A stretch of DNA of 64,000 nt from Lingula anatina. Taxonomy: Eukaryota > Animalia > Brachiopoda. The translations under genes and the position numbers were made by a program. The stretch is from the NCBI GenBank assembly GCA_051362555.1, contig CM120645.1, positions 8,432,001 through 8,496,000 on the forward strand, written 5' to 3'. Shown here piece by piece: positions 7,103 to 45,365 of the stretch; position 1 is the first letter of the stretch; every line of letters begins with the position of its first letter. Below the pieces are notes generated by a model. It did no database searches. It worked only from the letters and a program-made list of their open reading frames with translations, and was not told the origin of the DNA.

Positions 7103-7158
7103 TTTTGTTGTACTTGGGTAACTGCAATAGAAATGAAGATAAAATAAGTGAAAAACTT

Positions 7159-16283: not shown

Positions 16284-22879
<6,596 letters not shown>

Positions 22880-23265
22880 CTCCAATATCTTTTAAAATTT
22901 CTGTAGAATTCTAACATGCAATTTTGTTGCTACAACTGTTTGTAATTATTATTCTTATTCCTAGACGGCAGTAAAATCCAAGGAAAGACAAAAGTAAAAT
23001 AACAATTTGTTTTATGCCAAATTGATTGATGATACTAGATTGTAGTTAAAAACTTAATGATTGCCACTATAAATCATGCAAAATATATTAAAACAGCAAA
23101 TCCAATTTTTGTCGCTTCAGTTCTTTTTACAATGGGTCCTGTCTTACTTCTGCATCTCGAAAGATGGCGCTTCACTGGCGCACGCGGATTCGGTGGACGC
23201 ATGCAAGTCTCTTTTGTGCTTTCACCTGTTAATCGACAAGTTCATCATTTTAAAAACATGTAAAG
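22880..23265. promoter_or_regulatory. Bidirectional promoter and non-coding first exon of the FASTK-family gene
   Basis: The ZMYND10 ATG is at 22879 (minus). A YY1-like AAGATGGCG lies at 23161-23169 in a CpG-rich patch. A strong donor AAG|GTGAGT at 23265/23266 can splice to the acceptor at 24119/24120. Confidence 0.65.
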
Positions 23266-24211
23266 GTGAGTCGGGTCGTTAGTGTCATGAAGTATATGAA
23301 AATAATACAGAATGATAACCGGACCAGACGAGACTGCTGTCGCATGCTACTGTCCTCATACCAGATGATCATATATATATACAGTAAACTCCCCTAGCCT
23401 CAGTAGGTTGTGTATGTCTTCACTCTTCACTAAGTATATTCAGTGCCAACTGAGGCTAAGGGAGTTTATGTACTAGTATATGTTTAGGTTATGTTTTTGG
23501 CAATTTACATCTTTTGCTGCACTATTTCCCTATGTTTTAGGGAGGACGGTCTCCTTGCTGGAATTGTGAGCTTAACCACTCTCTTTTCAAAATCTAGTTA
23601 AACGCACCCCTGCAAACTTGTTAATTCAAAACCTTTGAAATTTGATTAATGTATAGTATAGATATAGAGGATACAACAGTCACACCAGCAAATAAAATAA
23701 TTTACAAAATAATCTAACCAGAATGCTTAGACTTCAAGTGGCTAAGCAAAATAAGATTGATTTGACATGCTTTCATAATATTTTAACCATTCAGACAAAA
23801 AAAAAAAAGTGATGAACAGAACAAGAAGTGATTTGCCTAAGCAGTTAAAAGAAAAAAATGCTAGCACTACCCTAACTTTTCTCCCACTATCTATCTTTCA
23901 AGCATTTGACAGGTAATCACCTTAGCCTAGGCAAGCCAGTAAGCTACTGTACTGTACCTCTGCTATGAGTTCAAGAGCCTGTAAACAAGCCAGGCAGTTA
24001 ACCATTTTAGAACAAATATTCAAATGTTTTTATTGCTGTGGCTAAAATTGCAGACTGGCAGATGTGGGAGATGACACAGTGCTTTGATTCATGAATGATT
24101 AATGTCTTGATTTTTACAGGTTGGAGCAATGGGAGAAACATCCGGGCCACCAATCCTTGAAATGAAACCACACTTAAATGATGCAAACCTTGTGAAACCG
24201 TGCTGTAAAAG

Positions 24212-27200
24212 ATGAGATTCTTGGCTCTTGCAACACTGTTACCCTTCCCAAGGGTCCTTGGTTCTCAACTTGGTTCTAGCAGAACATGTATAGGCAAGGG
24301 AAACAAGTTAGCAAGATATTCCTTCAGCTATCTTTCACCAGATGGCACCAGTAGTATTGTACAGACAAGATGTCACCTCAACATCAGGACCTCGCTGAAT
24401 AAGCAGATATCTAGGCGACGTAAGCAGTACCTCAATAGCAGCTCAGCAGATGATGTCATCAGAAATTTTGAAAGGAACAAAATGTTGATATTTGATCCCA
24501 GGAAATTTTTACAGTATTTGTGGGCTCTAGTGCGGTCAAATTCTGACAGCAACCGCAGCGGTTTTGACTTCCACTTTGTGACATTCCTGGAGATGGAAAG
24601 GCTTGAGATGCTTCAGCCCAATCAAATAAATGACATACTCATCCTTATGTCTCAGTTATCTCCAGATAAGAAAAATCAGAACATTGTTGGTCCATTGGAA
24701 GACTCTGTGTCGGCTAATTGGGCACACTGGCCCATGCTAGACAAACTCACATGTGTTGAAGCTGCCATCTATGTCCGGTACTCTTTCAACAACCAATTCT
24801 TTGAGTCTGAGATGAAACGGTTTTATGGCACTTTAGCCACTGAGGTTAAAGCCATGAAGGAAATATCTCTGGTCAAATTGTGCCGAGTCATTTCCCTTTT
24901 GCACTCCTCCAAGAATATCCTGTGGCTGGACGTGAGCGCTAAAAGATATGCTTGTTTATTATTGGATGCCGTGGAAAGCCAACTCTTTGGAAACCATCAT
25001 GTAAGTGAGACTCTACATCCTCAGGATGTTGGACTGTTCTTACAGGTATGCCATGAAGTAGACAGACCTATCTCGGCTGAGGTTCTGTCCAAAATAGCGA
25101 ACCCCAGTGTTTTGAGACCTGTGATGAATGCTGCTGACAGCAAAATGGATTGGGAATCGGCGTCATATCGATATGTGAAATGTGTGCAGGATTTATTTCG
25201 GGCGTCAAGAAAGCACCCGCCTGAAATTTATGCACTTTTGAAATTCTTTAAGGAGATGGAAGATAATGTTCTCAGTCATGTGTCATTATTGCCTGTCAAA
25301 CATGGCGTGAAAATAGCGTCTGCGTTTACCAAAGAGCGCTACTACTGCCCTAAATTAATTGACTCGCTCCTGGAGCACCAGGACATCAGACGGAATGAAA
25401 TGGGGACTGAAAGTATAGTCCAGTTTTTTCAAGTTGTAAGAGACAGTTCTTATAGGTGCGGAAAGGACTGTGTAATGACTTTAGTACATCTTTTCGAAAA
25501 AGCAGATTTTTCAAAGAGTCCTCCGCAAGAAGAGCTTTCATTTCTTGAATGTGCACTTCATCTTGGAATGAGTAGCTACTGGGGAAAACTGCTTGACCGA
25601 GTGCTGGACGAGGACATTTTCATCATAAAAGCCAGTCAGGACAGTTCCCAGTCCTCAGCTATGTTACAGATGAAGATCAATATTTGTAGTTTTCTAGTGC
25701 AGAAGTGGATAAGTGAGTATGGCAGACAACTTCTAGATATCCATGGACTTCTGTCAGAAAGTCTGCAGCAGATGGAGTTCTTTGGTGATGGTGGAAAGAA
25801 AGCAATAGCTGATGAGCTTTTGATAGTAGATGAGAATGATGATGCTCAGAATGCCCCAAAATCCTTTCAGGTAATATGTATGTATTGAAATTTGTTACCA
25901 TGCAGTTAAAGGAAAAGGAGGCATTTTTTATGTCAGAATTACAGTTTAAATTACAGTATTATCTTTATGTGACTTGCATTTATCATGCTTACAATGTTTA
26001 TTAAAATGAGATGCTATGTTTAAGAATGCTAGAATGCAATACTATGTTTTTCTAATGGTGAGAGACAAATGAGAGCAGGTAAACTACTCACTCATATCAG
26101 TTTGTTAAGGAGTTGATCCAGAAAATTATTTTTGGGCAATCCTTTTTATCGTGACTGCCATCAGAATGTATTTTATTATATTATTTCATTTCAGCCATGT
26201 AGAATCTTTATTTCATAACGAATTTATTTGAGTTTTAAGATATTTAAGTAGTATCGTAGTTTATAGTTCTTACATCCACATTTTAGGCTTTCATTTAAAG
26301 ACTGTGTATGAATTTCAAATGATATACACTGCTAAAAAATCCATTGTAATTTTTTTTTCTTCCAATACTAATTCAGCCTTCAGGGACTTGGAGTAAATGT
26401 AAGTGATTATGTTTATTTAACTATTACTAGGTAACATGTCCTAGTTCTCTAGGTAGGTCGACCAATTCTTTGGATGGATTCGAAATTTTACAAGTAGAGA
26501 GACACTGATGACATGTTCCACAATAAATCACAGCTAAATTTCTCAGATCAGGCCCGTAGCCAGAAATTTCAGAAGGGGGGTTCTTTTTCTAAAAAAAAAA
26601 ACAGACCTTTTACCATGAAACTTTCATGTACCTTAATTAAATTTCACCCAGAGAGGACCTTTTCCCTGCAAAAAGGAGGGTTCTTTCGAACCCCCTGAAC
26701 CCCCCCCCCCCCTGGCTACGGGCCTGCAGATGTTTAGTTTGATTGTCCAGAGATTACATATTCTTTTCAGAAAGTTCAGGTTGATCCTTTAGAGGCTGAT
26801 GAAGAGGTACAGCTAGAAAACCTACCTGATTCAACTGAGCTTGATCATAGAAGGGATTTTGGACTCCCAGATGACATTCTTGAGGATCGTGGCAAGGAGC
26901 AGGGGGAGTTGAGTGAAGGGCTTCAACTTCTCAAATCAGCATTGCTGTTAAAAGGATACCCAAGCAGACCTGTGCATCTCCCGTACATGAACACTAGTTT
27001 CTTGGAAATCTGCCTGGACGAGTCGGGCACACCAAGGGATGTGAATGGGCCTACAGTAGATGCCTTGGGTCTGTCAGTTAGGCATCATCAAGGTGGTTAC
27101 ACCAAGGTTGCCATACTTCCCGTCGAGCCGCAACATTATTTTATCAACTGCTATCCAAAGAAACTCATCGGTAGGTGCAACTTGGAAGGCTTAGGGTAAT

Positions 27201-29470
27201 TTCTTACACATATCAACCACCTTGCATCTTTTACCCGAAAATTCTGTAATTGACTGGTAGATTAAACAATTTCTTGTGCCAGGTTCTAAAAAACCCTGTT
27301 AGGGTTGGTGATTAAACAATATCTTGTGCTGATTTCTAAAATTTTTGTCATGTTTGATAGATAAGACACTTTCTTGTGCCACCATTTTTTAAAAATTCTG
27401 TTATGATTGGTAGATTAAACACTTTCTGATGCCAATTTTCTAATAAATTTATTGTTATAATTGATAGATTTAACCAAAAGTTTTTCAAAAGTTATACTGT
27501 TTTTTTAAAGCATATGTGCAATACAGATACGGTAAAGTCTTGAAAATTTCGTCGTTCTTGAAAATTTCGTCGGCAGACGATTTGCCGCCGACGTAATTTT
27601 TTTCCCTTTGAAAACTTCGTCGACCTTAAAAATGAGGTACTCGATAATTTTTGAAAAGTTCGTCACCAAATATGGCCGCGTTGTCCAGCTCAAACATGAA
27701 GGTAATGCGTCAGTTGATTCAAGACAATGATACGATCAGGATATCATTGCCGATAACACTCTCAATGGGAGATAGGAACAATAGTGCGCCCCTGCAAGCG
27801 GTTACTCACAATATAGATGGTTTAGATGTGAATTCCCGTTCTCAATTGCGGGAACGTCGGCCTTTTGTCTTTAGTTGCATTACTATTACCTGGCTTAAGG
27901 TGCGTTATCAAGCCGGCAAATAGAAGTCACAGGCTGCGGCTTTGTCATTTGTAACGCCGTTATTGTTATCGGCGGCTGTCCTAAATGAGGAAGACACAAT
28001 GAAAAAATCAAGATATTATCTCAAAGTGAAATGTACCCGGATAACACAATGAAAAAGTCAAGATATTATCTCGAAGTGAAATGTACCCGTCACTTCTATT
28101 CATGTCCATGTTCAATTTAGGACCATTTAACGATTACCTGGCTCGTACATGGAGATCGTTCGCAATGCGAATGGGACGAGATGGCAATTTTCATATCTTC
28201 AGCGGAGAATCGTTCCCGTAATATCGTCAACAGATCATTCGCGATCCAAACGAGACGAGAAGATAACTTTCATATATGTAGCGGACTCCGTTCGCATAAG
28301 ATCATCAGCGGGAGATGCGTTTATTATTTTCCAACATACATGAGTGATACGTAAGTCTTACTAAAATACAGGTTGAGTTTGAAGACCAGCATGATCAGAT
28401 TATTTTTTATACACAGACATATCACCTGCGAGGAGAAGCAGCCATTAGATGCTGAAACTGAAATCTTTGTCTAATTCTGGAAGGTTCCATAAATGCTAGG
28501 GACCTCTTGTTTGTTGCATTTCGTAGAGCTTGTCAATCCCAACACATTTAAAGAGTTGTGCTATATCAAAAAATATAATGTCGCAATATACAGTGTTCAA
28601 AATAAAACGTGAAATACTCAAAAATAAGCAGAGATAAGCCCATGGCTACTATTGAACTTGAATAGGAAGTTGGCAATCTAATTGTGACTTTTACTTTTAA
28701 TGACCAACTGCACTTTGCAAATTTTCCATCCCTTATATCTCCAAAACTGGCAGAGATACCACCATAGTTACTATTGAACTCTTATAAAAACTCATATGCT
28801 GGCAATCTTACTGTGACCTTGAAATTGACCTTTTACCTACTTTTCAACATGAACTAAATTTTGCAGTTTTCTGATCATTATGTCTCTAAAGCAGGCAGAG
28901 ATATGTTCTTAGTGAATATTGAAATTGAATAGGAACTCATATACTGGCAATCTAACCATGACCTTGAAATTGACTTTTGACCTACTTTTGATCATGAACG
29001 GCACTTCCCAAATTTCCAAGCTCTTATTTTTACTATTGAACTTGGATTGATTTGACCTTCTACTTTTCCTCATGATTTTGTTATGGATTGTAATTTTCAA
29101 CAAAAGAAATTGGGAACTCTAGTTTACTGCATTTTGTAGAGCTTGTCAAGCACAACAGCGAAGGTGGTGTCATTTTTTTCCCATACATCATGGTTAATGC
29201 AGCTGGTGGTACAATACCCAGAGGTGGTATCGCCTCTCTGATCCTCTATTTACATTTCATTTTGCCCTTTCTTTTTGTATTTCAGGTGAAGAAGAGGCCA
29301 GAGTCAAACATGTCAAGAATATGGGATATGAACATGTTTTGGATGTTCTCACAACACTGCCAATGGATGTTCTGAACAAGTGCCTTGCAGCTAAAATAGA
29401 GGAATGTGTTCAGAAATTTCCTGAGAAAAAGACAGAAAACTGGTGGTCCCCCCTACATAAAGAAGTATGA
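24212..29470 (+). CDS. FAST kinase domain-containing (FASTKD-family, FASTKD5-like) mitochondrial RNA-processing protein, ~747 aa
   Basis: Exons 24212-25870, 26771-27170 and 29286-29470 (intron phases 0 and 1). The protein has an Arg/Ser-rich transit-peptide-like N-terminus, a Leu-rich helical body and a RAP-like C-terminus (EICLDESGTP...KVAILPVEPQHYFINCYPKKLIGEEEARVKHVKNMGYEHV). AATAAA lies at 29983-29988. The paralog identity is uncertain. Confidence 0.8.
26549..26726. mobile_element. hAT-like MITE with perfect 15-bp TIRs and a 5-bp TSD
   Basis: TIRs caggcccgtagccag / ctggctacgggcctg; flanking direct repeat cagat at 26544-26548 and 26727-26731. Confidence 0.9.
27994..28089. repeat. Tandem duplication, 2 x ~50 bp
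   Basis: acacaatgaaaaa(a/g)tcaagatattatctc(a/g)aagtgaaatgtacccg occurs twice. Confidence 0.85.
28600..29250 (+). mobile_element. Helentron/HINE-like element, 3' part, with degenerate satellite units
   Basis: Diverged copies of the 146-bp unit, the subterminal repeat gctggtggtacaa (29202-29214) and the terminal hairpin agaggtggtatcgcctct, all as in the 47291-50784 element. Confidence 0.7.
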
Positions 29471-31314: not shown

Positions 31315-34300
31315 GGAAGGCCATCACTGGAGCTGTTGAATAGAATGGATTGTATTTATTTCGCTGATCTAGAGAATTTTTCCAAATATGATGAACTGCA
31401 GGAGTTACTCTCTGACGGAACATTTTTATGGGGATTTGGTTCACCTAAATTTCTACCGTAAGTTGGCTAAATAAAAATCCAAATTTATTTGATAATCTCT
31501 TGGTAGTTTTCCACAAATAAAGTGAACTACATTTAACTTGTCACTTTATAACTCAAATTATTGTGCATACAGTTTTCTTCACCAAGTATCGTTATGTCCT
31601 TGTAGTTGTTTCTCAAGAGTTTTATGGGAAAGTAGGGTTGTTATGACCCAATCTTTTCTAAAAGAGAGAAGATTTTAAGTTTTATGTGTTTTTAAAGTAG
31701 TTACAGGACAGAAAGCACTTTATATCTAAGACCTCATTCATCCACATCAGCAGGGATGGATTACAATAAAGAATGGAAATAATTTAAATAAAAGTATCGA
31801 CTATTTTTACATAATAAATGTGTCAAAGGTGTTTCATAGTTTTAGGACAGACATTAGGATCTCTGCCTGCCATCCCCATTGCTGTTGCCAATAAGAATGT
31901 AGTTTTCTTGTACACTATTTTGCTTATTATTCACAGATGTAGTCGTAGATTCATAGACTAAAATTAAGCTTGGATTAGAAAACTGGCCTGATTGAAGCAT
32001 TTAACTTTTGGGGATTTTTTTCAATTTTCACACCTGTCATCTATAATTCCCATACGGACCTGGGGCCCATTTCACGAAGCAGTAGTTAGTTACCGATCGG
32101 TAGTTAGTCTCTTGCTAGTTATGAGTGCAGTTTCACAAAGCTATCGCTAGTTCTCTCACTCGTTATTGTGTCGTTGTTACCTTGGGTATTTAACGACTGG
32201 TCAGACCAGTAGCTAACTCTAGAGTTTCATTGTACGCATGCGTAAGGAATGAAATAGAAAGGTTGCTTAGTTACTGTTGTCTATCATATCCACTATTTGC
32301 GGCTACCTTTCTTGCAAACCGTACAGCCAGACGGCAACATATACCACGATGTTTTCATGATAAGCAGAATCTATTAGCATATACACAGGATGATGCAATT
32401 TACTGAACTTAGCGATGAGTTAACAACTGCTTCGTGAAACACCCCTTAAGTTATCTCGTTAGCGAGATAGTTCAGTAGTTGTTCTAACTAACAACTGCTT
32501 CGTGAAACGGGCCCCTAAAGCCCTATGTTAGTTAGATTCTCTGAAAGACCACATAATACATACATTTTAATTAAAATTTTGTGGTGATAATGCTGTTAAG
32601 CATTATGTAATATTGTCTCTAGTCGTGTATTATCATTGAATTTTGCAATACATTTCAGGAATAAAAAATTTTTCATGCAGCCCAACACTTACTATGAAAT
32701 TGCTACAGACACTGAAAAGGATGCTGCAGACATTTGCCTTATTATAAGGGTAAGCAATGTTACTGGTATGGGTAGTAAATTATTTTAAAACATAGCTGGC
32801 AGGGCTTGACATAAACTTTTTAGGCACTTGCCAGCTGACAAGTAGGTAGGTCTGGGGGGTGTTTTGAGAAAAAATTATAGGCTTTTTTTGTTGTTGTTAT
32901 TGTTGTTGCCAGGGGAGATTTTAAGTATATAATTATTAAATACTATACATTATCCTATAATCTTGACTTTGTTCTAATTAATGATTATTACAAAACACAG
33001 CATATAATGTATTTTTATAATCAATCAATATTTCTTTGTTAATATTGAAATTCAAATCTTACCTTGTCAAATTTTAATATGGCCAAGACAGAATTGAAAT
33101 TTTAATTTGGCCTATACCAATTTAAAATCTGTCTACAAGGTAGATTTATAATATCTGACTTAAATTCATTGTGGACTAACTAAAAACAGACGCATGCACA
33201 TTGCACTTACGCACATATACATACGTATACACACACACTCACCATGATTTGGAAGCTTGTCAGAAAAAATGTCTGGACCTGCCCCTGCTTTTCACCATGA
33301 ATGGTACGTTGCAAGTTATGGGTCCTTGTATTGCCAAAGACATACACCCATAGTTACTATTGAACTTGAAAAACAACTCGTATACTGGCAATCTTAATGT
33401 GACCTTTAATTTATCATTTGACCTACTTTTCATCATGAACTGTACTTTGCAAATTCTAGACCTTATATCTCCCAAACTGGCAGAGATAACCAATTATCTT
33501 AGTAACTGTTGAAATTGAATAGAAAATATTATATTGACTATTTATGTGTCATTTAATATGACCTTTGACTTAATATTTCATCATGAATTGCACTTTGCAT
33601 GTTTTTTCAGGTGGCACAGATGGGTGAGAAGATCTCTAAACACGTCGCATTTGAGGTCTGGTCGTCAGATAAAATATTCGAGATGTTACCTAAGATGATA
33701 AGAAGGGATTCAGATAGAGAGATTGAAATAGTCAAACCCCACCAGAAAAAACAAAATGGCAAAGTTACTGTAAAAAAATTCAATGTAAGTCTGATCACAG
33801 TGCTTAAGCCCTTTTTGCACTGGATGGTGTCCTTTCTATGTCCCGCAGTACGGCCTCGTTTGAGAGTTTAGTAAGAAAAATACTTAAGCATTCATTCTGC
33901 AACAAAGCAATGCTTGTGTCTCTTTTCTATGACCACGGCGATGCCAGTTTTATGGTCACACAAAAGACGCAGAAATGACGCCGTCCAGTGTTAAGGGGGT
34001 TTTAGTTATTACAATTGCACCACCAACGTAGGCGCTGGTGGTACACATGGTTTTAGTCCCGACCCGCCTGTTTCGCCGGCTCCACCGCCATGTCACCGTT
34101 ACAGCTTCTCCTCCTAGACTACAAGGGCCTGCATACCCATCTCTTGGATTTAGTATATATTTTTAATCTGCAGTCTAGAATATCCACGGATCAGCTGGTT
34201 CTGAATGTGCCCATTGCCATTAAACTAAGTCCTGACTATATTATGCTTTGTTTGATGAAACCTTAATATAACATGTCTGCACTTTCAGAGAAAAAAAATT

Positions 34301-37026
34301 GGAAAACCAACTTTGGAGCAAAATTGCAAGTTGCAGGGTGCCCGGGTAGAGGACAATGTTTCTGTTGGATCCCACATTTGGAAAAGTATGTATATATGTT
34401 AAGAGAAATGATTATCCCTATTTTCAAAGAATATGCCTGTTAGTCAGCAGTTACATGAAATAAGAATATATGAATGAGGAGTTATTATTATTATTGTACC
34501 ACCAGCATAGGTGGTGGCGGTACACATGGTTGTAGTCCCGACTGTAACGAAACTGAGGGTCTGTCTAACAGAAAGTCCGCCCTCCATATAGTTATAATGG
34601 TCAGGGTTAGTTGGTCAAAATCTAGGACGAGGCTCACCTGTACAAATGAATGGGAAGCGGACTCTCTCTTATGGGGGACTCTCTGTCACGTTACATCGAC
34701 CATCTCATCTGCTGGTTGTCACCGTTACAGCTTCTCCTCCTAGACTACGAGAGCCTGTATACCCTTCTCTTGGATTTAGGTCACATATAATCTCAACTCA
34801 ATCCACATAAATTTTGGACTTTGTCAGTTGTAGTCCCGACCCATCTCATCTGCTCGTTCCTCTGCCTTGTCACCGTTACAGCTTCTCCTCCTAGACTACA
34901 AGAGCCTGCATACCCATCTCTTCAATTTAGGTCACACATAATCTCAACTCAATCCACAAAAATTTTGTACTTTGTCAGTGCACATGCCTAGGTGTGGCAC
35001 ACATTGAAACACACCCTTGTCAAAATGTTTGTTGCCCTACATATATCAAAGAGTACAACCTCACAATATTCAGTGGCGAAAATAATGTGAAATAATCCCA
35101 AAATTAGCAGAGATATACCCATAGTGACTTTTGAACTTCAATAGGGTGTCATATATTGGTAATCGTACTGTGACCTGGAACTTTGATCAACTTTTCACCA
35201 TGAACTGCACTTTGCAAATTTTTTTACCTTTATATAATATCCAAAACTGGCAGAGATATGCCCATAGTTACTATTAAACTGGAAAAGGAAATCATATATT
35301 TGCAAACTAACTGACCTTGAATATGACTTTTGATCAACTTTTCACCATGAAGTCCACTTTGCAAAATTCCAACCCTTTTATCTCCGTAAATGGCAGAGAT
35401 ACACCCATAGTTACTATTGAACTTAAATAGGAAATCATAGTTTGGCAATCTTTGACCTTGAATTTTACCTTTGACCTACTTATCACAATGAACTGGACCT
35501 TACAAATCTCCGACCCTTATATCTCCAAAACTGGCAGGGATATGCCTATTTGAACTTGAATAGGAAGTCACATATGCACATATTGGCTATCACCTTAAAT
35601 TTGACATTTGACAAACTTTTTACCATGAACTTCACTTTGCAAATATTTCAACCCTTATAACTCCAAAACTGGCAGAGATACACCCATAGTTGTTAATGAA
35701 CTGGAAAAGTGAGTCATATCTTGGCAATCTTACTTTGACCTTGAATTGACTTTGACATACTTTTCATTTCATCTTGAATTTAACCATCACAAATATTTCA
35801 ATATGTTCAAACAGACTACCAGTGCCAAAAAAGAATTCCACTATAAACAACATTTCCTCTAAGTGCCAATGCTTTTACATGTCCACTTCTCCTACCCCCC
35901 CCCTCTTTCAAGTTACTGCCTCAAAATCTAAAAACCCAATCTCTATAAATTCCCTAATTACACATTTCAGTGTTTTGTCAATTACTCTTAACTAACATCA
36001 ATCAACATACTCCAACAAACCACAACTACTCAAAACTCAGCAATCACAATTCCAAACACTAAATTAAATACATTCAAACATTTTTTGTCACCATTAAAAA
36101 AAATATATTGATTATTCCCACTTCCACCTTATGCAATATAAACCATCTACCTTCAATGAACAAAATGGACAAAACTATAGCCTGTATACATTTACTACTG
36201 TTACAAAAAGTTGCATATGTATTAAAAACAATCATACATTAAATGCCTTTATCTACACGTGAATTTAAACTATTCTACTTCTCCCCATAAAGCACTGTAC
36301 CCACTTCCAACCCTACTTCAAAACTTATACACACAAATCCATACCTTCCCTTCGATTTAAATACACTTACTTCCACTGGTGGTACATTATCAGGAGGCAG
36401 TATCACCTCTCTGGTTTTTTAAGTATGTCCACACCTCATAGTATAAAGAGGAGTGTGATCCATTGATTTGAGTGAGAAAAGTAAGGAAATGACTCCTATT
36501 TGGAAAATATTGTGCACAGCAAATATTGTGGCATTGTTACTATTTCAACATCGTGTTTACCCCTTTTGGGGATGATATTGGGTATTCCCCCCAGGTCGGG
36601 ATATCAGTTGGATTATTCACTAGGGCCTGGTATGTACGTGTTCAGAAATGTTAATCTCTGCATTAAAAGTACACCCCTATTAAAGTTAATTATAGGGGTT
36701 TAAAACTTAAATCGTTGGGACTCAGCAGGGATAAATACTACTCTTACTCGGCCTAAATCTACTCAGCTCACTTTTACCCACCCACTGTGAGCAGGACATC
36801 ATCATCAATAGAAAAGTGCTCCTGTACTTTCATTTAAATAAACAGGGTAATGCACCTGATAAACAGGGTGAAAATGCCGACCTTTGTGAGTCGGAACAAT
36901 AGCAGCTCGCAGATGGCGTTGCTTATTTCTTAGTTAAATGCTCTCAAATTGCCTTATACTGTTCAAGAACCATGAAGAAAAAGACAATTACAGAGATTCC
37001 TTGAATATTCCCTCTTTTTACAATAC

Positions 37027-37063
<37 letters not shown>

Positions 37064-40000
37064 CTATAATTTCAAATGATGAACATGCTAGTAAAAATCA
37101 CACACCGTCTTTCCCAACTCGGGTTTATTCAATTTGATGCACTATAAATGTCAGAAGTTAAACAGTGATAATTTTTATTGTCAAAGGTAATTAAGTTTAA
37201 TTTTGAAATAAATAATATATGTATCACAGTTGCATAAATTTTCTTAATTTGTCAACTCATACACGATGATACACTGCAGTAAGGTTATAGGATTGCAGTC
37301 ATTTTAATTATTATGTACAGACACAGATGTGTCTGTACATATTGCCATCACCTGCGTCTGTCGTCGCCGTTGCCGATGCCGGCGCCGTGCACTTTCCTTG
37401 TAAACATGATAAGTGGAGGGCAGTTTTACTTTTTGGCTTAATATTTACAGAGCTGATGAATATTCATAAAACGCAGGTCAAGTTCGAAAACCAGCATGAT
37501 CGGGCCATTATTGTAGAAGTTATGTTGTTTTTTCACTTTTCAGCATATATGCAACCCTGTAAACACATTTAAAGGAAAACCGTTAGGCCTGTTGTCATGA
37601 AACTCACAGGAGTAATCAATCTTACTAAAATGCAAGTCAAGTTCGAAAATCGGCATGATCGGGCCACTATTTTAGTAGTTATGCTTTTTTTTCATTTTTC
37701 AGCATATATGCAACACTGTAAACACAATATAAGAAAAACAGATAGGCCAATTGTCATTTAACTCACAGGATAGGTCAATCTTACTAAAACGCAGGTTGAG
37801 TTCGAAAATCAGCATAATCGGGCCATTATTTTAGAAGTTATGCTGTTTTTTCAAATTTCCTCAGATTCAACTCTTAGGCATGTTAACAGTCTCATTAATG
37901 AACTAATAAGATACGTAAAAGTGTTTGTTTGACATTTCCTGCATCTTTACAACATTGTTAGTTGATTATGTAAAAATGATGGTAAACTTGTTATCGTGTA
38001 TTGTGTAATAAAGTTTCAAAAATGGAAATAAACTCATATCATTGCAGTTTGTCAGATTCAATCATTCACTATGTTCAGAATCTCAGAATGGAGGAAATTG
38101 GACATTTAACACTGTTGTATTGATATTTTTCCCATCTCATCAATTTTCTTAGTTGATCGTATAAAAATGGCAGTAACCTGTTAATTTTGTTTTATGTTAA
38201 AAAAAGTGTTAAAAATGGGAAAAAAAAAACATTTCAGAACAGTGCTGTCTTGTTTACATTCTGGCATTTTCAAGTTGTGACTTGGAAGTTCCATGGGCCT
38301 GAAGACCTTTGCTAGTCACATTTTCTGAATATCCATGATTCTTATATTTTATTATTAAAAATTGATGGTCATTATGCTGTTAAACATTATGTAATATTGC
38401 ATCAAAATTTGAAAAAAACCTATTTTGGGCACTGCTCCCATGATGACCATTTAAGAAAAACCATGTCACTTACTGTTCTCAAACAGTACAGTAAATATGT
38501 ACAGATGTGTCTATACATATTGCCATCACCTGCGTCTGTCGTCGCCGTCGTCGCCGGTGCCAACACCGTGCACTTTCATTGTAAACATGATAAGTGGAAG
38601 GCAGTTTTACTTTTTGGCTGTATATTTACAGAGCTGATGAATATTCATAAAACGCAGGTCAAGTTAAAAAATCAGCATGATCAAGCCATTATTGTAGAAG
38701 TTATGCTGTTTTTTCACTTTTCAGCATATATGCAACACTGTAAACACATTTTAAGGAAAACCGATAGGCCTGTTGTCATGAAAATCACAGGAGTAATTGA
38801 TCTTACTATAACACAGGTCAAGTTCGAAAATCGGCATGTTCCACGGGCTTGAAGACCCATGCTAGTCACATTTTCTGAAAATCCATGATACATGTATTTT
38901 ATTATTAAAAATTAACGGTCATTTTGCTGTTAACCATTATGTAATATTGCATCAGAATAGAAGAAAACAATTTTGGGTGCTGCTGCCAAGATGACCATTA
39001 TGGGAAAACCATGTTACTTATGATTGTCAAACTTTCAAAAAAGAAATACAGGACTAAAATGCAGAGTAATTGATCTTACTAAAACGCAGGTCAAGTTCAA
39101 AAATCGGCATGATCGGGCCACTATTTTAGTAGTTATGCTTTTTTTTTTCACTTTTCAGCATATATGCAACACTGTAAACACAATATAAGAAAAACAGATA
39201 GGCCTATTGTCATTAAACTCACAGGAGTGGTCATTCCTGCTAAATCGCAGGTTGAGTTCAAAAATCAGCATAATCGGGCCATTATTTTAAAGAAATGCCG
39301 TTTTTATGTACAGAGACAGATGTATTTTACCTGTTGAGCATAATTAAAATTTGATGTTGAATTTGCAGTTTAACATAATGTACTTTTGCATCAGAATTGA
39401 CAGTAGCCTTTTTTGTTATTTCCTGCTTTTTGTCTGTACATTTGACAGCTTTGCTGCCTTGTTCGTATGACAATCAATCTCGTAACTAGCATCTTTAGAG
39501 GAAAAGTTCAGGTAAAACATCTTTTTACAATAAAAACAACACAAAATTTACCAAAGATATTATAAAAATAGTCAAAAAGATAGAAAGAAAATTTGGTCAC
39601 CAATTTACAGGGAGTCCACTTACAAATATACCCTCGTTCCCCAAAAAATTTCTTAAGCTGTCCAGCTGTCATTTAAAATATGGGTCGTCTTTCGAGCCCA
39701 GTAGCTGTCCAAATGAAAGGTGGAAGGCTCTCTGGGAAACACCTTGCTTCAGATATAACAAAAAAGGATGCCTAAAATTTATATTCGGTGTAGACATAAG
39801 TAGGTTTTTTTATAACAGGAACCAATATATTCCTGCAATAAGAATTATGATGTCGGGCTCTACCTGCTGCTGCATAAAACTTTTTGAGTGCCTGCTATGA
39901 TTATTTGACCAAAGTCAGGGTAATACTTAATCTTATGTAATGTTAAAGTTGAATTGTTATTTTTATCTTAATCTGGTGTTGTACTATCATGGTAGGTGAA

Positions 40001-43000
40001 TCGCAACCTGGTGGGGGGGAAAAGAAGAAGACACCAGAAACAAAATATCCTGTCGATATTCTTGACAGGCAGCGTCCAGGACTGAAATATAAGCTTGTCG
40101 CTGAAATTGGAAAGGGCAAAGCTAAGAATTTTATTATGGAGGTGACGGTGGACGGAGAGACATTTCAGGGTTCAGGGAGGAGAAAAATAGATGCCAAGAG
40201 ACGTGCGGCTAAAGCCGCCCTCAGCAAGATCTTCAACTGGGAAATCTCTGAGGTTCCAGGTAGAGCTACAGCACAGGCATTCTTCACAACAGGGGGCTCT
40301 GTTCTCACTCATTTCAGCTTTTATTGTCACTCTGCCTGGCATCTTTTCTCTTTTGGTTCTTGTTCTGTTTGTTGCAGACAATTTAAACAAAAAAATCTAA
40401 CACTGGTGAAGATAACATCTTGACACAAAAAGAAAAACAAGGGTGTTAGAGAAAATTTGCCAAATACTGGTATCTTAAGATGAGATCTTGTTTCCTCAGG
40501 GCTTTTGTTTGAAGCTTTAGTCAGCCATCTTTCCTTAAGAACGGCTCCCCCTGGTGTGCAGAATGTTGACAACAGGAAGACTTATATGCAGTGTAGTTTG
40601 GTGTAACACTTCTGTCTGAGGATCTTATTGAATGTTTTTGTTTTTCTGGAAGACCTGCACGAGTTTTTTTCTTTAAGCATCACTATTTTACCACACCTAG
40701 CATAGATGCTTTTACTGACTCTTTTTTTAGATTTTCTCGGTCATGACCGATTGGACCGACAGTTTCAGCATGTCTGGTTGTGGACCACATATAATGCACA
40801 TATCAATTAATTCCTTTCATTTTGAAGAAAAAAAATTTATGGAGACTTTACAATGAAAAATTTTCAGACTTGAATATGACACTCTCCATATTTATCCAGA
40901 TTTTGCAGTATATTAAATATGTTGTATTTTATGTTGTGCTGCTTGTTCTCCAGTGTATATAGTGTATTTACAGAGAGCTAGTCTTGAGTTTGACCTTTTT
41001 TTTTTCACCACAAACTGCATTTTGCATATTTTCTGCCCCTCTTATCTTCAAATCTCGCAGAGATATGCCCAGTGTTTCCCCTGGGTTTCTTTTTATTCAG
41101 CATTTATGCAACACTGATAACACATTTCAAGGAAAACCATATGCCTACTGTCTTGAAAATCACAGGAGTGATCAATATTACAAAAATACAGGTTAATTCG
41201 AAAATTATAGTTATGCTGTTTTTTCACTTCTTTTTGCATTTTTTGATAACTTATTTATTGCATTTTATAGAGCTTGTCAGGCTGAACAATGGTGGTGGTA
41301 GTGGTGGTGACCCCTTTTTTTGGTTTTCCATATGAATGCACTTACTCCAGTTGGTGGTACAATGCTCAGAAGCGGTATCACCTCTCTGATCCTTTAGTTA
41401 GCTGACTTTCATATTTTATTCATATTGAGTTTCAACGAGCCATGCGTCCTTTACCTGATTACATAATATTCAAAGATAAAGTGATGTTTGCGTCCCCCGC
41501 TGTGGCGTCAACAGCTTATTTTGACAAGGCTCGCACTACAGACTGGCTCAAGAAAAACATTGTTTTACCTTGATGACGATGAGTCTATTACTTATGGTCA
41601 TTTTCCCCACGGCAACCATTCATAAAAAGGGGGGCGTAGTTAGGTATTAGACAATTTTTCTGATCACTTAATGCGTTAGCAGTGCGTTGTCTTCAAATTA
41701 AATCCGTTAACTGTACCTGTCAGTCACATGAAATAAGAACATAATGAGGACATAGCTAGTGATGGTTATTATTAATAAAAGATCTTCTTACAACTTATGG
41801 TTTGAAGACTGGTCTACTCCAAAGATGCCTTTTTGGGGAAATATTTAATAGCAATATTACAGTGTCATTGTGATTGATTAAAGATGGGGGTTACCCCTTT
41901 TTGGGATTAAATTGGGCAGGAGCTCCCTCCCTTCCTCCTTCATGATCCTAAATGCAACTGTTAAAGATGGAAGAATAGTATGGCATGCCCTTGTCAGTAG
42001 GGAGATCTTACATTGTTGTCAATTATTTTTATGTTTATCTTTTGATATTATTTATTTTGTATATTTATTAAGTAAATAAAGAATTTAGTTTTTTCATTGC
42101 AGGTTGGGCGGAAAAATATTTGGAGGCTAAAGCAAAAGCTACAAGAAAAATCATTAGAGATATCAACAAGTTGCAAGGTGGCAAGATATCCATGATAGAC
42201 TTGAGTGAAGAAAAGAGGTGTGTGCGTGTGTGTAAGAGAGAGAAACCAAAAAGAGAGGGAGGGAGAGAGATAAGGGGGGGGGGAGAGCTGGCATGCATCA
42301 ACTTTGAGCTGTACAAAAAATTTTTATTACAATGATTTAGTTTAATGTCTCACTTTTATGGAAATTTACCTGTTCAGATATCTTATTTGGTCAGTGTGCA
42401 TTGTAAGATCCCACGGATCTTAAGTGAAAACAATAAGGTGTTGATTAATATTCTGTATGTTTATTTCAGTAACCAGCATCAGAAACGCATGTACTTGTAG
42501 TCCCATGGTTCTGACTAAAACGAAAACAAAAAGAACATAAATAAGTCTTCTTAAAACAGTGTTACAAACAATTTTAACTGCATTAAGAAAGTTTAACTTA
42601 TACAACAGAACAATCATAAAAACTCACATTGCTGGCTTTCGTGGATGTCAATTATTCCTTTTTATCCTGGAAAGCTGAATTTCCTCTACAAAATCACTGA
42701 ACATCTATAAGTAACTTGACGTTATTATACTATGTGGTGTCTGAACTGTCATAAAAGCACAAAGGAGTGTCGCAAAAATGTCTATTCCTACAGAATGCTA
42801 ACTGCAAAACAGCCACGCTGCTGAAGTGTCAATCAATTCTCCCTGCAGTCCTACCTCCTCACATAAAAGATCACGCAAATGGGCCGCTTAAGTTTACATT
42901 AATCAAAATAAACAAGTAATCGGGTTATTCGATTCTTACATGCATGCCACTAACATGATTAATAAAAAATTTTAAAAACATCCTTGGAGTTTTTGGGCAG

Positions 43001-43447
43001 GATTGATCTTTTGAGTATATATATTTTATTGTCTAAAAATTATTTACTTGCAGTGAAATAGATTTTTCTCCAGAAGAAGAGAAGTCTATATATATGCCTC
43101 AAAGGGATTCTCTTCCCCAAGCTAGAGGACAATTTAGAAAACTTGAAAGAGAGTATGACCTAGACTCTTTGAATTCTGAGGATGATTATAAGGAGGAGGA
43201 AGAAAAGTTTATGGTCATAGCTCCTGATGTGCTGTTGGAGGAGAATGGTATGTGTGCCTTTAAAAAAATGTGTATTTCTTAACTGATAAAAAGATTAACA
43301 TGTGCCTTATCATCAACAGTTGGTATGAATGAGAAAAGAGATTTTTTGTTAATCAGAAATTATTTTCACATCTGGTGGTATAAAAACCCTTTGAAGGAAG
43401 GGTTATGAATGCAACTGCAACAAATTGGACAATAAAACTAATAACAT

Positions 43448-43486
<39 letters not shown>

Positions 43487-45365
43487 TTGCAGGTTTTGGA
43501 GAAACGGAGGCACATTCTGAAGATATCGATGTGTATGCAGATTGTTTGATAGATGCGCTTAATCAGGATCAGCTCTGTGATGGCAGTGCTGATGAGGATG
43601 AAGATGAAGATGAGGATGAGGACAGCTCAGAGATGGGGGAGAGCACAAGCAGTCTCCAAGATGAAAGAGAGAAGAGACTAGAAACCACAAAGAGATTGCA
43701 CAAAACAGTGGAATACTTGTCTTTCGATGAAGACAACACTACCTGTACATCGAATGTGACTGCTGCTCTGTTACCACAGGTTAGTTGATTTATAGACGTT
43801 AATGAGGGAGTAAACTTTCGGGGGTCTTTAAATTAAATATAATTCATACCGTTCTTCAAAGATCTGTCTGTCACGTTTTACCCACTGTAAGCGTAACATT
43901 GACTGTAATATTTAGGGTGTTATGTACTGGTTAAGCATTGACATATTGATGACAGTGCTGTGGAAAATGCCTTTGTGTTCCTTTTTTTTTTATTTATTTT
44001 TCTATGAGAGGTTAATACAACACAACCATGCAAAGGCGATACTGCCTCCTGGTATTGTACCACCAGCAGTAGTAAGCGCATTTGTATGGGAAACAAAAAA
44101 AAAAAAAAAAGGGACACCACCTCCAGTGTTGTGTTTGACAAGCTCTACAAAATGGAGTAAACAAGAGTTCTCAATTTATTTATTTAAAATGATAATTTAT
44201 TATAACAAAATCTTTTGAAAAAGTAAAACTGTAATCAATATGTCAATGCTTTAGCAGTGCTGGTGGTGACGTTGCATTGGGTATATGACTCCTTTTTTTA
44301 ACCAAGTGAAATAATACTGTGAAATAAGTCAATTAAGTGTGCTTGTCCTGTCATATTGGATAACCTTCTGGTTATGTGTATCATTATTTATTTCAGGAAT
44401 CTAGCCAATTAGAAGTTACAGAAAAGAAAAGCAAAAAAAATGGCAGTCAACGGAAATGTAGTTATTGCAAGGGTAAGTGCTTGCATTTCCCTTAAATTTA
44501 TTCATTTGACTTTATTGTTATCGAATGATTTTGCACCACAGTAAGACTTGGATAAATACATAGAAACAGTGGCAAAATCAGATAAATATACCAATTGATA
44601 AGGATATATAAATAATGGATAATAATGGATATATAAATAATGGATATTAAAATCCAACATGAAATTCCATTATATGAATTAAAACAAATTAGACAACATA
44701 AACGATAAAAAAGTTTGCAAGTCTATGTGTTCTGAAAGAAAGTTATGTTCATATGTTGTGCTACAGGACTCGCTTCAATAATATGTATGAGCTGATTAAC
44801 AGAAAGTGATTAAGGCTATCTGGAGAAAAACAATGCATTTTTCCTCTAATTAGGCATTGATGCAATACTGTGTTAGTAAAGGAAAAAAATTGTAGTTGGC
44901 GTAATGATTTCTTTTTGTTCAAATAACGTAGACATACCACTGCCTTGATTTTTGTACTATGTTCACCTAGTCAAAGATGTAGGTAGTATCATAGATAATA
45001 TGTCCGGGCACTTGTTTTGCAAGAGGTTTAACTTATTTTAGCAGGACTGGTTAAACTCCCAAGTAGTAGAAGATTCACCAAAATTCTAATAGCAATCTAT
45101 TTTCTTGGCTTAAAAATTTTTATAATGTTTTATTTCTTTGCTTTATCATCTTCAAAAACAATTTTCTCTGTTTGTCCTTTATTTCGTATAAATTATTTAC
45201 TCTATAGGTTCTATTCTTAAACTAAGCACTAATACTTAATCAAAATGAAATTTTAAGAAGTAAGATGTCTCATTTGATGTATAATTTTTAGGTTTGGGCC
45301 ACATCAACAGAGTGACCAAGGGGATCCCTACCTGCCCAAAGAGAAGAGCAGATGAAGGTCACTAA
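31315..45365 (+). CDS. Uncharacterised multidomain protein: ZNF451-type PIN/NYN-like domain + dsRBD + acidic tract + variant CCHC zinc knuckle (>=504 aa; 5' exon uncertain)
   Basis: Exons 31315-31457, 32659-32749, 33611-33784, 34289-34385, 39996-40259, 42103-42217, 43054-43247, 43493-43779, 44397-44472, 45292-45365. All nine introns are GT-AG with matching phases (2,0,0,1,1,2,1,0,1), giving 1515 nt of open frame ending in TAA. A candidate first coding exon is 30762-30860 (phase-0 donor gtaaga). AATAAA lies at 46119-46124. Confidence 0.85.
32062..32515. mobile_element. MITE (Harbinger-like termini) in an intron of the PIN-dsRBD gene
   Basis: TIRs ggggcccatttcacgaagcagtagttagt / actaacaactgcttcgtgaaacgggcccc, with internal subrepeats of the TIR. 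Confidence 0.85.
33806..34001. mobile_element. MITE-like inverted-repeat element
   Basis: ccctttttgcactggatggtgtcctttct pairs imperfectly with agaaatgacgccgtccagtgttaagggg. Confidence 0.6.
34490..36420 (+). mobile_element. Helentron/HINE-like element with degenerate internal tandem array
   Basis: 5' ttgtaccaccagc at 34494-34506; a duplicated gtcaccgttacagcttctcctcctagact block; several diverged satellite units at 35100-35770; 3' ctggtggtaca plus hairpin ggaggcagtatcacctct. An extra 5' fragment lies at 34010-34155. Confidence 0.75.
37320..39290 (+). mobile_element. Second interspersed repeat family, locally duplicated (~37320-37860 and ~38500-39290), with internal tandem subrepeats
   Basis: Both copies start cagatgtgtct...atcacctgcgtctgtcgtcgccgt and carry repeated caggtcaagttcgaaaatcggcatgatcgggcca units. 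A fragment lies at ~29585. Confidence 0.75.

What the first reader, a model, noticed from the sequence alone, without database searches (positions are those of the whole stretch)
31315..45365. Hidden 10-exon gene fusing a PIN/NYN-like nuclease, a dsRBD and a zinc knuckle: candidate dsRNA-directed RNase
Seen: ten short exons over 14 kb join through canonical GT-AG sites with all nine phases matching, giving one open frame of 504 codons plus stop. The ORF track shows only fragments. The domain order is PIN-like (exons 1-3), basic linker, dsRBD (exon 5), basic helix, D/E-rich tract, then Cx2Cx4Hx10C knuckle. Known: this PIN type is, to my knowledge, found at the C-terminus of ZNF451 behind C2H2 fingers, while dsRBDs usually partner RNase III, deaminase, kinase, helicase or DZF domains. 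I do not recall a characterised PIN+dsRBD+knuckle protein. Inference: a lineage-specific RNase recruited to dsRNA, for antiviral defence, transposon or inverted-repeat RNA surveillance, or small-RNA processing.
Basis: partly seen in the sequence, partly recalled or inferred. Interest (0 to 1): 0.92.

Follow-up and report, generated by a model that had tools for sequence, protein, structure and literature searches.

The report
Chimeric FASTK-PIN-dsRBD mitochondrial RNA enzyme
The ten exons are real but are most likely the back part of a longer lamp-shell (brachiopod) gene that joins a predicted mitochondrial RNA-binding protein of the FASTK type to a probable RNA-cutting domain and an optional double-stranded-RNA-binding domain, a combination our searches found in no other organism and which likely processes or clears mitochondrial RNA.

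Summary
The frame is open at its 5' end. Three upstream exons (24212-25870, 26771-27170, 29286-29464) extend it to 1250 aa, matching RefSeq LOC106170647 X1 of Lingula anatina at 1238 of 1250 residues; isoform X2 skips exactly the dsRBD exon. The missed 746 aa have a presequence-like start, a helical solenoid, and a domain whose best fold match is human FASTKD4 FAST2-RAP (Z 11.6, next 8.1), all without Pfam hits. Then come PIN_11 (three family Asp kept, long branch), an ADAR2-type dsRBD, an acidic tract and an atypical CCHC motif. RNA reads show 5 of 12 junctions, but not the RAP-PIN or PIN-dsRBD joins. No other protein with the fusion was found among 1.84 billion representatives. PIN plus dsRBD alone probably has a giant-virus precedent. 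Best reading: a lineage-specific FASTK derivative that gained a nuclease and an optional duplex-binding module for mitochondrial RNA processing or decay (0.45). Location and activity are untested.

The parts
24120..25870 (+). First coding exon (acceptor 24120, ATG 24212; aa 1-553): basic, acid-free presequence-like N-terminus (aa 1-75) and alpha-helical solenoid (about aa 76-525)
   Evidence: frame; net +12 and 1% D/E in aa 1-75; helical repeat; top folds are mitoribosomal and RESC repeat proteins; same start Met in RefSeq X1 and X2; junction to next exon in 11 reads from 4 of 4 runs
26771..27170 (+). Coding exon 2 (aa 554-686): acidic linker and first part of the FAST2-RAP-like domain (domain aa 596-737, from about 26897)
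   Evidence: (fold); junction to 29286 in 14 reads from 3 of 4 runs
29286..29464 (+). Coding exon 3 (aa 687-746): end of the RAP-like domain. Its donor GTATGA holds an in-frame stop, so an unspliced form would end as a stand-alone 747-aa FASTK-like protein
   Evidence: paralogs P0008, P0021 and P0027 end at the same aligned point. The junction to 31315 is in RefSeq X1 and X2 but was not among the joints displayed
31315..31457 (+).
   Evidence: (PIN_11 E 0.003 alone); junction to 32659 in 11 reads from 3 of 4 runs
32659..32749 (+). PIN_11 middle exon (aa 794-824), KDAAD motif with D818
33611..33784 (+). PIN_11 end (D844, PH 867-868) and start of basic linker (aa 825-882)
   Evidence: NYN fold match to MARF1 5yaa for aa 752-869, Z 8.3, rmsd 3.1, 110 aligned
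34289..34385 (+). Basic linker exon (aa 883-914)
39996..40259 (+). Cassette exon, phase 1-1, 88 codons (aa 916-1003): dsRBD most like ADAR2 dsRBD2
   Evidence: Pfam dsrm E 1.7e-10; ADAR2 dsRBD2 i-E 3.9e-17; skipped in X2; strand-specific depth about 2.0-2.9x in 4 of 4 runs
42103..42217 (+). Basic helix exon (aa 1003-1040)
43054..43247 (+). Acidic, predicted disordered exon (aa 1041-1105)
43493..43779 (+). D/E-rich tract exon (aa 1106-1201); aa 1036-1180 are 34% D/E, net charge -34
   Evidence: junction to 44397 in 21 reads from 4 of 4 runs
44397..44472 (+). Basic stretch and Cx2C of the knuckle-like motif (C1222, C1225)
   Evidence: junction to 45292 in 12 reads from 4 of 4 runs
45292..45365 (+). 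Last coding exon: H1230 and C1241 of Cx2Cx4Hx10C, then stop TAA (TGA in some reads)
23140..23265 (+). Predicted non-coding first exon (donor GTGAGT at 23266; start approximate), head-to-head with a minus-strand gene
   Evidence: Sequence only; not covered by the read lays

Best explanation
This is most likely one 13-coding-exon gene for a 1250-aa chimera in which a diverged FASTK-type protein (helical repeats plus a RAP-fold domain) is joined to a PIN_11 domain and an alternatively spliced dsRBD, and it is predicted to enter mitochondria and likely cuts or clears structured mitochondrial RNA. Shown: the open frame, the domains and their order, the cassette dsRBD in RefSeq isoforms, expression of both halves, and the FASTKD4-like fold of aa 596-737. 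Inferred: (1) the basic N-terminus is a matrix presequence; (2) the repeats and RAP domain pick a mitochondrial transcript, as FASTK proteins do; (3) the PIN supplies metal-dependent endonucleolytic cleavage of nearby single-stranded RNA through D764, D818, D844 and possibly E766; (4) the long isoform's dsRBD docks on an adjacent stem or duplex and the short isoform works without it; (5) the acidic tail and CCHC motif modulate RNA binding. Candidate substrates are the tRNA-less mRNA junctions (cox2-nd2, nd1-nd3, nd4-cox3) and the long repeat-rich spacers of the Lingula mitogenome. Origin (inferred): a duplicated FASTK-like gene recruited a splice donor at its old stop and captured a ZNF451-derived PIN, and an ADAR2-type dsRBD came in as a symmetric exon.
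For: One frame of 1250 aa with 12 of 12 GT-AG introns in phase. RefSeq X1 has the same length and 12 substitutions; X1 and X2 both cross RAP into PIN. Sequence before the PIN's first Met is conserved, so the PIN exon needs an upstream coding exon. Estimated depth is of the same order across both halves (sum of 4 runs 7-20x per exon group). The RAP model (pLDDT 72) ranks FASTKD4 9gek first of 350,542 chains in Foldseek (prob 0.99, TM 0.61, E 0.051) and first of 48,161 in VIA (Z 11.6, rmsd 4.0, 134 aligned; next Z 8.1). The solenoid's top matches are organellar RNA-binding repeat proteins in three searches. Two Lingula paralog clusters match only the N-terminal part, have basic N-termini and end where the PIN begins. 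PIN_11 passes Pfam's cut-off and matches the MARF1 NYN fold, an ssRNA endoribonuclease that uses a cluster of Asp residues (PMC6294520, passages). All six human FASTK-family proteins carry a mitochondrial targeting sequence (PMC5737537, passages). FASTKD5 cuts tRNA-less junctions (PMC12242768, passages); FASTKD4 appears nuclease-dead (PMC11879112, passages). The Lingula mitogenome table shows three tRNA-less mRNA junctions and long spacers (PMC8146825, passages and Table 1).
Against: The RAP-to-PIN (29464>31315) and PIN-to-dsRBD (34385>39996) joints were not among the 15 of 20 joints displayed, so the key fusion rests on the RefSeq model and indirect evidence. The donor at 29465 reads through to a stop and there is an AATAAA at 29983, so the front part could stand alone. 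No targeting predictor was available; the tail has several basic NLS-like runs, and ZNF451 is nuclear (PMC5499597, passages). No Pfam FAST_1, FAST_2 or RAP hit at E up to 10. The solenoid's best Z of 12.9 is at the level the tool calls unspecific for helical repeats. The PIN keeps only 17 of 26 near-invariant family positions (D766E, D829G, E849M, SGD to SSD) and sits on a branch of 3.07 against a median of 0.28. The dsRBD has KIDAK for KKxAK and Lys for the loop-2 His of ADAR2. All Lingula mitochondrial genes in the table are on one strand, which weakens a need for clearing antisense duplexes. No ortholog was found in any other species, so selection on the fusion could not be measured.
Confidence: 0.45

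Rival explanations
1. The chimera is real and mitochondrial, but the captured PIN is a decaying or catalytically dead domain. The protein then works as a FASTK-type RNA-binding adaptor or stabiliser, like FASTKD4, and the PIN, dsRBD and acidic tail serve as scaffold or are nearly neutral baggage.
For: The PIN branch is about ten times the median. Identity to family members is 34% against 51% among them, and 9 of 26 near-invariant positions have changed, including three acidic ones. Pfam score 41 bits against 79-247 for the 22 homologs. The dsRBD is skippable and its motifs are altered. PIN_11 has never been shown to cut RNA; it is 'function unknown' with a p300-binding role in ZNF451 (PMC5499597, passages).
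Against: D764, N767, K814, D818, S842, D844 and the PH motif are kept despite the long branch. None of the 12 differences between the window and RefSeq alleles falls in the PIN. The frame is intact in both alleles, and reads carry a stop-preserving variant.
Confidence: 0.25
2. One reading: the protein, or an isoform starting downstream of the presequence, acts in the nucleus or cytosol as a dsRNA-guided RNase against viral, transposon or inverted-repeat RNA.
For: PIN_11 and the dsRBD come from families of nuclear proteins (ZNF451; ADAR2 and ILF3). Several basic runs resemble nuclear signals (resemblance recalled). FASTK itself has cytoplasmic and nuclear forms (PMC12871924, search listing only). 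Giant viruses appear to pair the same two domain types. Repeats inside intron 34386-39995 are heavily represented in RNA reads.
Against: Both RefSeq isoforms begin with the acid-free basic N-terminus and carry the whole FASTK-like part. No immune-type domain or paralog expansion of the PIN-dsRBD part was seen.
Confidence: 0.15
3. There are two neighbouring genes, a stand-alone FASTK-like gene ending near 29470 and a PIN-dsRBD-knuckle gene with an unseen first exon, and the fused model reflects minor read-through splicing or an annotation merge.
For: In-frame stop in the donor at 29465 and AATAAA at 29983; paralogs end at that point; the joining reads were not displayed.
Against: Phase 0 meets phase 0 at canonical sites. 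The PIN exon is coding from its acceptor, and no other upstream coding exon was seen in 29465-31314. Both RefSeq isoforms have the join and the protein cluster holds no shorter member (2 of 2 members). Depth in the bin holding exon 29286-29464 and 219 nt of the intron fits the exon alone, with no sign of a covered 3' UTR.
Confidence: 0.12

Closest known systems
FASTK family (human FASTK, FASTKD1-5; FASTKD4 structure 9gek)
   Same: Presequence-like start, long helical region, then a Vsr-like FAST2-RAP fold (Z 11.6 to 9gek); the stand-alone paralogs are of ordinary FASTK length (688-710 aa).
   Different: No Pfam FAST_1, FAST_2 or RAP hit; the RAP domain is internal, followed by about 510 aa with PIN_11, dsRBD, acidic tract and CCHC motif. 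About 91% of RAP domains are C-terminal (PMC8190603, passages).
ZNF451 / PIN_11 (PF18479), NYN group; solved relative MARF1 NYN (5yaa)
   Same: PIN_11 above the curated cut-off; D764, D818, D844 kept; NYN fold (Z 8.3, rmsd 3.1).
   Different: Internal instead of C-terminal; no C2H2 fingers; D766E, D829G, E849M; conserved Cys lost (T810; C in 16 of 20); long branch. None of the 22 PIN_11 homologs found has dsrm, FAST or RAP hits at E up to 0.01.
ADAR2 (ADARB1) dsRBD2 and ILF3/NF90 dsRBD2
   Same: Closest solved sequences (i-E 3.9e-17 and 2.8e-12).
   Different: Single, optional domain with no deaminase or DZF partner; KKxAK reads KIDAK, loop-2 His is Lys, helix-1 Glu is Arg.
PRORP (protein-only RNase P)
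   Same: Works-like analogy: an organellar helical-repeat RNA-recognition module joined to a PIN-like metallonuclease (PRORP as a PIN-like organellar pre-tRNA endonuclease: PMC5499597, passages; its PPR repeats are recalled).
   Different: Different nuclease group (NYN/PIN_11, not PRORP), different repeat type, extra RAP domain and dsRBD; no PRORP Pfam hit. Not a member.
Giant-virus dsRBM-NYN/PIN proteins (e.g. Pithovirus A0A481YND2; uncharacterised)
   Same: Probably the same two domain types in one chain: the model lacking the dsRBD still matched this 213-aa 'double-stranded RNA binding motif-containing protein' over 115 columns at rmsd 3.6 (E 2e-3).
   Different: The matched range was not given, so the PIN match is inferred. 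Both modules here have animal closest relatives, so convergence is more likely than transfer. The viral proteins are short (213-362 aa) and too small to hold a FASTK part.

Membership tests
Canonical FASTK family | [quoted passage not shown] | tested here: not met
   No such Pfam hit for the protein, its upstream exons or three paralogs at E up to 5-10. Filed as FASTK-derived, not as a canonical member.
Canonical FASTK family | RAP region adopts the Vsr-like PD-(D/E)XK fold of FASTKD4 | tested here: met
   Model of aa 596-737, pLDDT 72: 9gek ranks first in Foldseek and VIA (Z 11.6, rmsd 4.0, 134 aligned), followed by 3r3p, a Toxoplasma mitoribosome chain and Vsr.
Canonical FASTK family | HPR/OPR-type helical repeats upstream | tested here: inconclusive
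   All-helical solenoid; best matches are mitoribosomal and RESC repeat proteins and FAST_1/RESC6 clusters at score 0.82 or less, but Z 12.9 and these scores are within the unspecific range.
Canonical FASTK family | N-terminal mitochondrial targeting sequence | tested here: inconclusive
   Composition only: aa 1-75 net +12, one acidic residue, amphipathic moment 0.45. No dedicated predictor or experiment.
Canonical FASTK family | RAP domain at the C-terminus | tested here: not met
   About 510 aa follow it.
Canonical FASTK family | Conserved RAP Asp (FASTKD4 D523 or D531) | tested here: inconclusive
   No residue-level alignment to FASTKD4 was obtained. The strand has E632 (4 of 4 Lingula proteins) and D636 (3 of 4). 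From a recalled FASTK motif the D523 position would be F630, i.e. lost.
PIN_11 domain (PF18479) | Profile match above curated cut-off and NYN fold | tested here: met
   41.1 bits against 26.6; MARF1 NYN match.
PIN_11 domain (PF18479) | At least four conserved active-site Asp (PMC5499597) | tested here: not met
   D764, D818 and D844 kept; D766 is Glu (Asp in 20 of 20) and D829 is Gly (Asp in 19 of 20). Activity is possible but unproven.
ZNF451 | C2H2 zinc-finger array before a C-terminal PIN_11 | tested here: not met
   No significant C2H2 hits; PIN is internal.
Type A (RNA-binding) dsRBD | dsrm fold with conserved contacts, including two lysines of the KKxAK region (PMC5716075; bioRxiv 10.1101/466763) | tested here: inconclusive
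   dsrm passes the cut-off. The motif reads KIDAK with two Arg just before it, so two of three Lys are kept; loop-2 His is Lys. Binding not tested.
Zinc knuckle zf-CCHC | Cx2Cx4Hx4C spacing (recalled) and profile match | tested here: not met
   Spacing is Cx2Cx4Hx10C; only zf-C2H2_10 at E 0.18.
PRORP | PRORP-type nuclease domain (PF16953) with PPR repeats | tested here: not met
   The nuclease is PIN_11; no PRORP or PPR Pfam hit.

The most novel reading that the evidence does not exclude
A brachiopod has built a new mitochondrial RNA endonuclease by exon shuffling: a probably nuclease-dead FASTK RNA reader was given a working PIN from nuclear ZNF451 and a switchable dsRBD from ADAR2. The result is a PRORP-like design reached independently, and splicing toggles whether it targets duplex RNA in an unusually expanded, repeat-rich mitochondrial transcriptome.
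Probability: 0.3. Interest if true: 0.85.

Novelty: new variant of a known kind. Interest (0 to 1): 0.6.

Why it matters
How animal mitochondria cut transcripts where no tRNA punctuates them, and which FASTK proteins are catalytic, are live questions. A FASTK derivative with a second nuclease fold and an optional dsRBD would be a natural solution not described in the papers searched. It also offers a direct test of whether PIN_11, listed as function unknown, is an RNase. The three stand-alone Lingula paralogs have no FASTK Pfam hit, so profile-based counts of FASTK genes in invertebrates may be too low. The limit is that the fusion is so far known from one species.

Tried and rejected
No whole genome is held for this window, so paralogs, a canonical Lingula ZNF451 and the Lingula ADAR2 gene could not be searched directly. 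No RNA holder was listed by index; nine raw-read runs with the same species label were offered, of which six were laid. The first lay (92% likeness) was swamped by intronic repeats and displayed no exon junction (15 of 222 joints shown). The second (98%) displayed 15 of 20 joints. Word-seeded homolog searches found only the protein itself (1 of 5300 candidates, 1 of 2254) or one paralog (1 of 7993), so they are weak evidence of absence. Sequence searches of the PDB with the paralog alignments, single paralogs and a PIN_11 profile gave no FASTK or MARF1 hit. NCBIfam gave only the dsRBD. Viral contig scans with PIN_11 patterns confirmed 0 of 160 and 0 of 135 stretches, so the giant-virus proteins could not be fetched. 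None of 19 metagenome loci with a PIN-like match carried the dsRBD, RAP, solenoid or knuckle (short contigs). The full-length model is low-confidence (mean pLDDT 49) and lacks the dsRBD; only its better parts were used. Literature searches returned 0 papers for FASTKD+dsRBD+PIN domain, LOC106170647 and NYN domain+double-stranded RNA binding domain+domain architecture+fused, 1 for ZNF451+PIN domain, and 7 listings for pithovirus/dsRNA binding/PIN domain, none on this pairing by title. The library lacks most subscription papers; no supplements were read, and the domain-architecture supplements of PMC5499597 could bear on novelty. Rejected: a free-standing start at Met757 (upstream residues are conserved); viral origin of the PIN or dsRBD (closest relatives are animal proteins); membership of ZNF451 or PRORP.

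Full report
Observation. Ten exons between 31315 and 45365 join through nine GT-AG introns into 504 codons and a stop. Pfam on single exons gave PIN_11 for the first (E 0.003) and dsrm for the fifth (E 1.7e-10). Three of the nine junctions are seen in stranded RNA reads: 31457>32659 (11 reads, 3 of 4 runs), 43779>44397 (21, 4 of 4) and 44472>45292 (12, 4 of 4). All have the first mate on the minus strand, which fits a plus-strand RNA in most stranded libraries. That table showed 15 of 20 joints.

The gene is longer. Position 31315 follows an acceptor and is in phase 0. Residues before the first Met (M757) align with PIN_11 homologs (L754 in 20 of 20), so the exon is coding from its first base. 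Upstream lie three plus-strand exons: 24212-25870, 26771-27170 and 29286-29464. With them the frame is 1250 aa, with 12 of 12 introns GT-AG and in phase. Reads show 25870>26771 (11 reads, 4 of 4 runs) and 27170>29286 (14, 3 of 4); 29464>31315 was not displayed. A search with the first exon returned one protein, RefSeq LOC106170647 isoform X2 of Lingula anatina, 1162 aa. Its cluster holds one other member, X1, 1250 aa. X1 differs from my model at 12 of 1250 positions, and X2 equals X1 minus residues 916-1003, the dsRBD exon. Estimated depth per exon group, summed over four runs, is 7-20x across both halves, with 9.5x on the dsRBD exon. One caution: the donor after exon 29286-29464 contains an in-frame stop and an AATAAA lies 520 nt further on, so a stand-alone 747-aa form is possible.

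The missed N-terminal part. Pfam and NCBIfam see nothing significant in aa 1-746. phmmer of X2 against 1.84 billion representatives gave 25 hits at E up to 0.001: itself, 22 PIN_11 proteins and two proteins matching only the front part. Those two are Lingula proteins of 688 and 710 aa, without significant Pfam hits, that align from the start and end where the PIN begins. Aa 1-75 carry net charge +12 with one acidic residue, and the paralogs are similarly basic; this is presequence-like but was not tested with a predictor. AlphaFold on X2 (8 sequences, mean pLDDT 49) gives a helical solenoid from about aa 76 to 525. Its best matches are trypanosome RESC subunits and Toxoplasma, Polytomella and Chlamydomonas mitoribosomal repeat proteins (Foldseek E 4.7e-5 to 2.1e-4 for the top four; VIA Z 12.9, rmsd 6.3, 314 aligned), a level the tool calls unspecific for helical repeats. 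The atlas gave RESC6 and FAST_1 clusters at 0.82 or less, a lead only. Aa 596-737 folded alone reach pLDDT 72. Human FASTKD4 FAST1-FAST2-RAP (9gek) is the first hit in both Foldseek (prob 0.99, TM 0.61, E 0.051) and VIA (Z 11.6, rmsd 4.0, 134 aligned; next 8.1), with I-Bth0305I and Vsr behind it, the same neighbours reported for FASTKD4 (PMC11879112, passages). The front part is therefore FASTK-derived, though it fails the profile definition of the canonical family (PMC5737537, passages). Whether its RAP keeps a catalytic Asp could not be settled; a recalled motif suggests not.

The appended modules. PIN_11 spans aa 757-865 (41.1 bits, cut-off 26.6) and matches the MARF1 NYN structure (Z 8.3, rmsd 3.1, 110 aligned). 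Against 20 of the 22 homologs (the two longest, P0012 and P0019, were left out of the alignment) it keeps D764, N767, K814, D818, S842, D844 and PH, but only 17 of 26 near-invariant columns; D766 is Glu, D829 is Gly, E849 is Met and the conserved Cys is Thr. Its identity to them is 34% against 51% among themselves, and its branch is 3.07 against a median of 0.28. PIN_11 is described as a potential nuclease with at least four conserved Asp and unknown function (PMC5499597, passages). The dsRBD is closest to ADAR2 dsRBD2, then ILF3. Its KKxAK reads KIDAK with two Arg just before, and the loop-2 His is Lys, so RNA binding is likely but not canonical (criteria from PMC5716075 and bioRxiv 10.1101/466763, passages). 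Aa 1036-1180 are 34% Asp/Glu and predicted disordered. The Cx2Cx4Hx10C motif at 1222-1241 has no significant profile match.

Mechanism. The best-supported reading (0.45) is a mitochondrial RNA-processing or decay factor. Inferred steps: import by the N-terminus; transcript selection by the repeats and RAP domain; cleavage by the PIN; docking on a nearby stem by the optional dsRBD. FASTKD5 cuts junctions not flanked by tRNAs (PMC12242768, passages) and FASTKD4 binds without cutting (PMC11879112), so a nuclease added to a non-cutting FASTK reader is a coherent design. It resembles PRORP in logic but not in ancestry. The Lingula mitogenome has all listed genes on one strand, 27-34 tRNA genes in complete records, long repeat-rich spacers, and three mRNA-mRNA junctions without a tRNA (PMC8146825, passages and tables); these are candidate substrates, nothing more.

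Novelty. None of the 22 PIN_11 homologs has a dsrm, FAST or RAP hit at E up to 0.01, and of the 20 whose names were looked up none is labelled Lingula (several have no name). No paper in the library held FASTKD, dsRBD and PIN domain together, or the locus name. The PIN+dsRBD pairing alone is probably not new. The model lacking the dsRBD matched a 213-aa Pithovirus protein named as a dsRNA-binding-motif protein over 115 columns at rmsd 3.6 (E 2e-3; range not given). The atlas's only shown hit for aa 590-880 was a giant-virus cluster with dsrm in 82% of members, at a score of 0.77, below the chance level. An earlier unchecked note of this scan describes such a viral family. I could not fetch those proteins. 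The FASTK-PIN-dsRBD fusion itself was found only in this species.

Verdict. This is an annotated but uncharacterised chimeric gene and a new variant of the FASTK/RAP kind. Interest 0.6, limited by one-species distribution, an unseen key junction, and untested location and activity.

Noticed in passing
Proteins P0008, P0021, P0027 (Lingula LOC106178723, LOC106154132, LOC106152743): Stand-alone 688-710 aa paralogs of the N-terminal part with no significant Pfam hit; they look like a diverged, unannotated FASTK-like set in Lingula.
   Followed up: partly
window 5915-7156 (-): Single open frame of 413 aa with a bZIP domain (bZIP_2 E 7.8e-11); NFIL3/giant-like by recall.
   Followed up: partly
window about 20255-22856 (-): Multi-exon minus-strand gene head-to-head with this gene; ZMYND10/BLU-like by recall only (translations; the one exon scanned had no Pfam hit).
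   Followed up: partly
window 37124-39779: Interspersed repeats inside the 5.6-kb intron before the dsRBD exon, covered by RNA reads at hundreds-fold depth from copies elsewhere, mostly on one strand in the stranded runs.
   Followed up: no
window about 48290-49900, with dispersed copies near 28640-29000, 33330-33600 and 35100-35760: Tandem array of a unit of roughly 115 bases, seen by eye; not measured with a repeat tool.
   Followed up: no
window 39780-40443 and 41772-42435 in run X7: Run X7 has zero depth on the dsRBD exon and the next exon but covers 43100-43763. Exon skipping, 3' bias or a diverged population could explain it.
   Followed up: no
window 45364: Reads carry A>G in the stop codon (TAA to TGA), which keeps the stop.
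   Followed up: yes
window 23140-24211: The predicted 5' UTR holds seven upstream ATGs with short frames of 1-28 codons; not tested with reads.
   Followed up: no
window about 51580-55850 (-): Exons of an unidentified minus-strand gene downstream; the 155-aa frame at 53560-54027 has no significant Pfam hit.
   Followed up: no
L005 574-981: PIN_11-like domain in an uninterrupted frame of a metagenome contig with long frames on both strands; it might extend PIN_11 beyond the animals to which PMC5499597 confines it.
   Followed up: no
Protein P0003 (Dreissena polymorpha, 523 aa): Two tandem PIN_11 domains with no zinc-finger hits.
   Followed up: no
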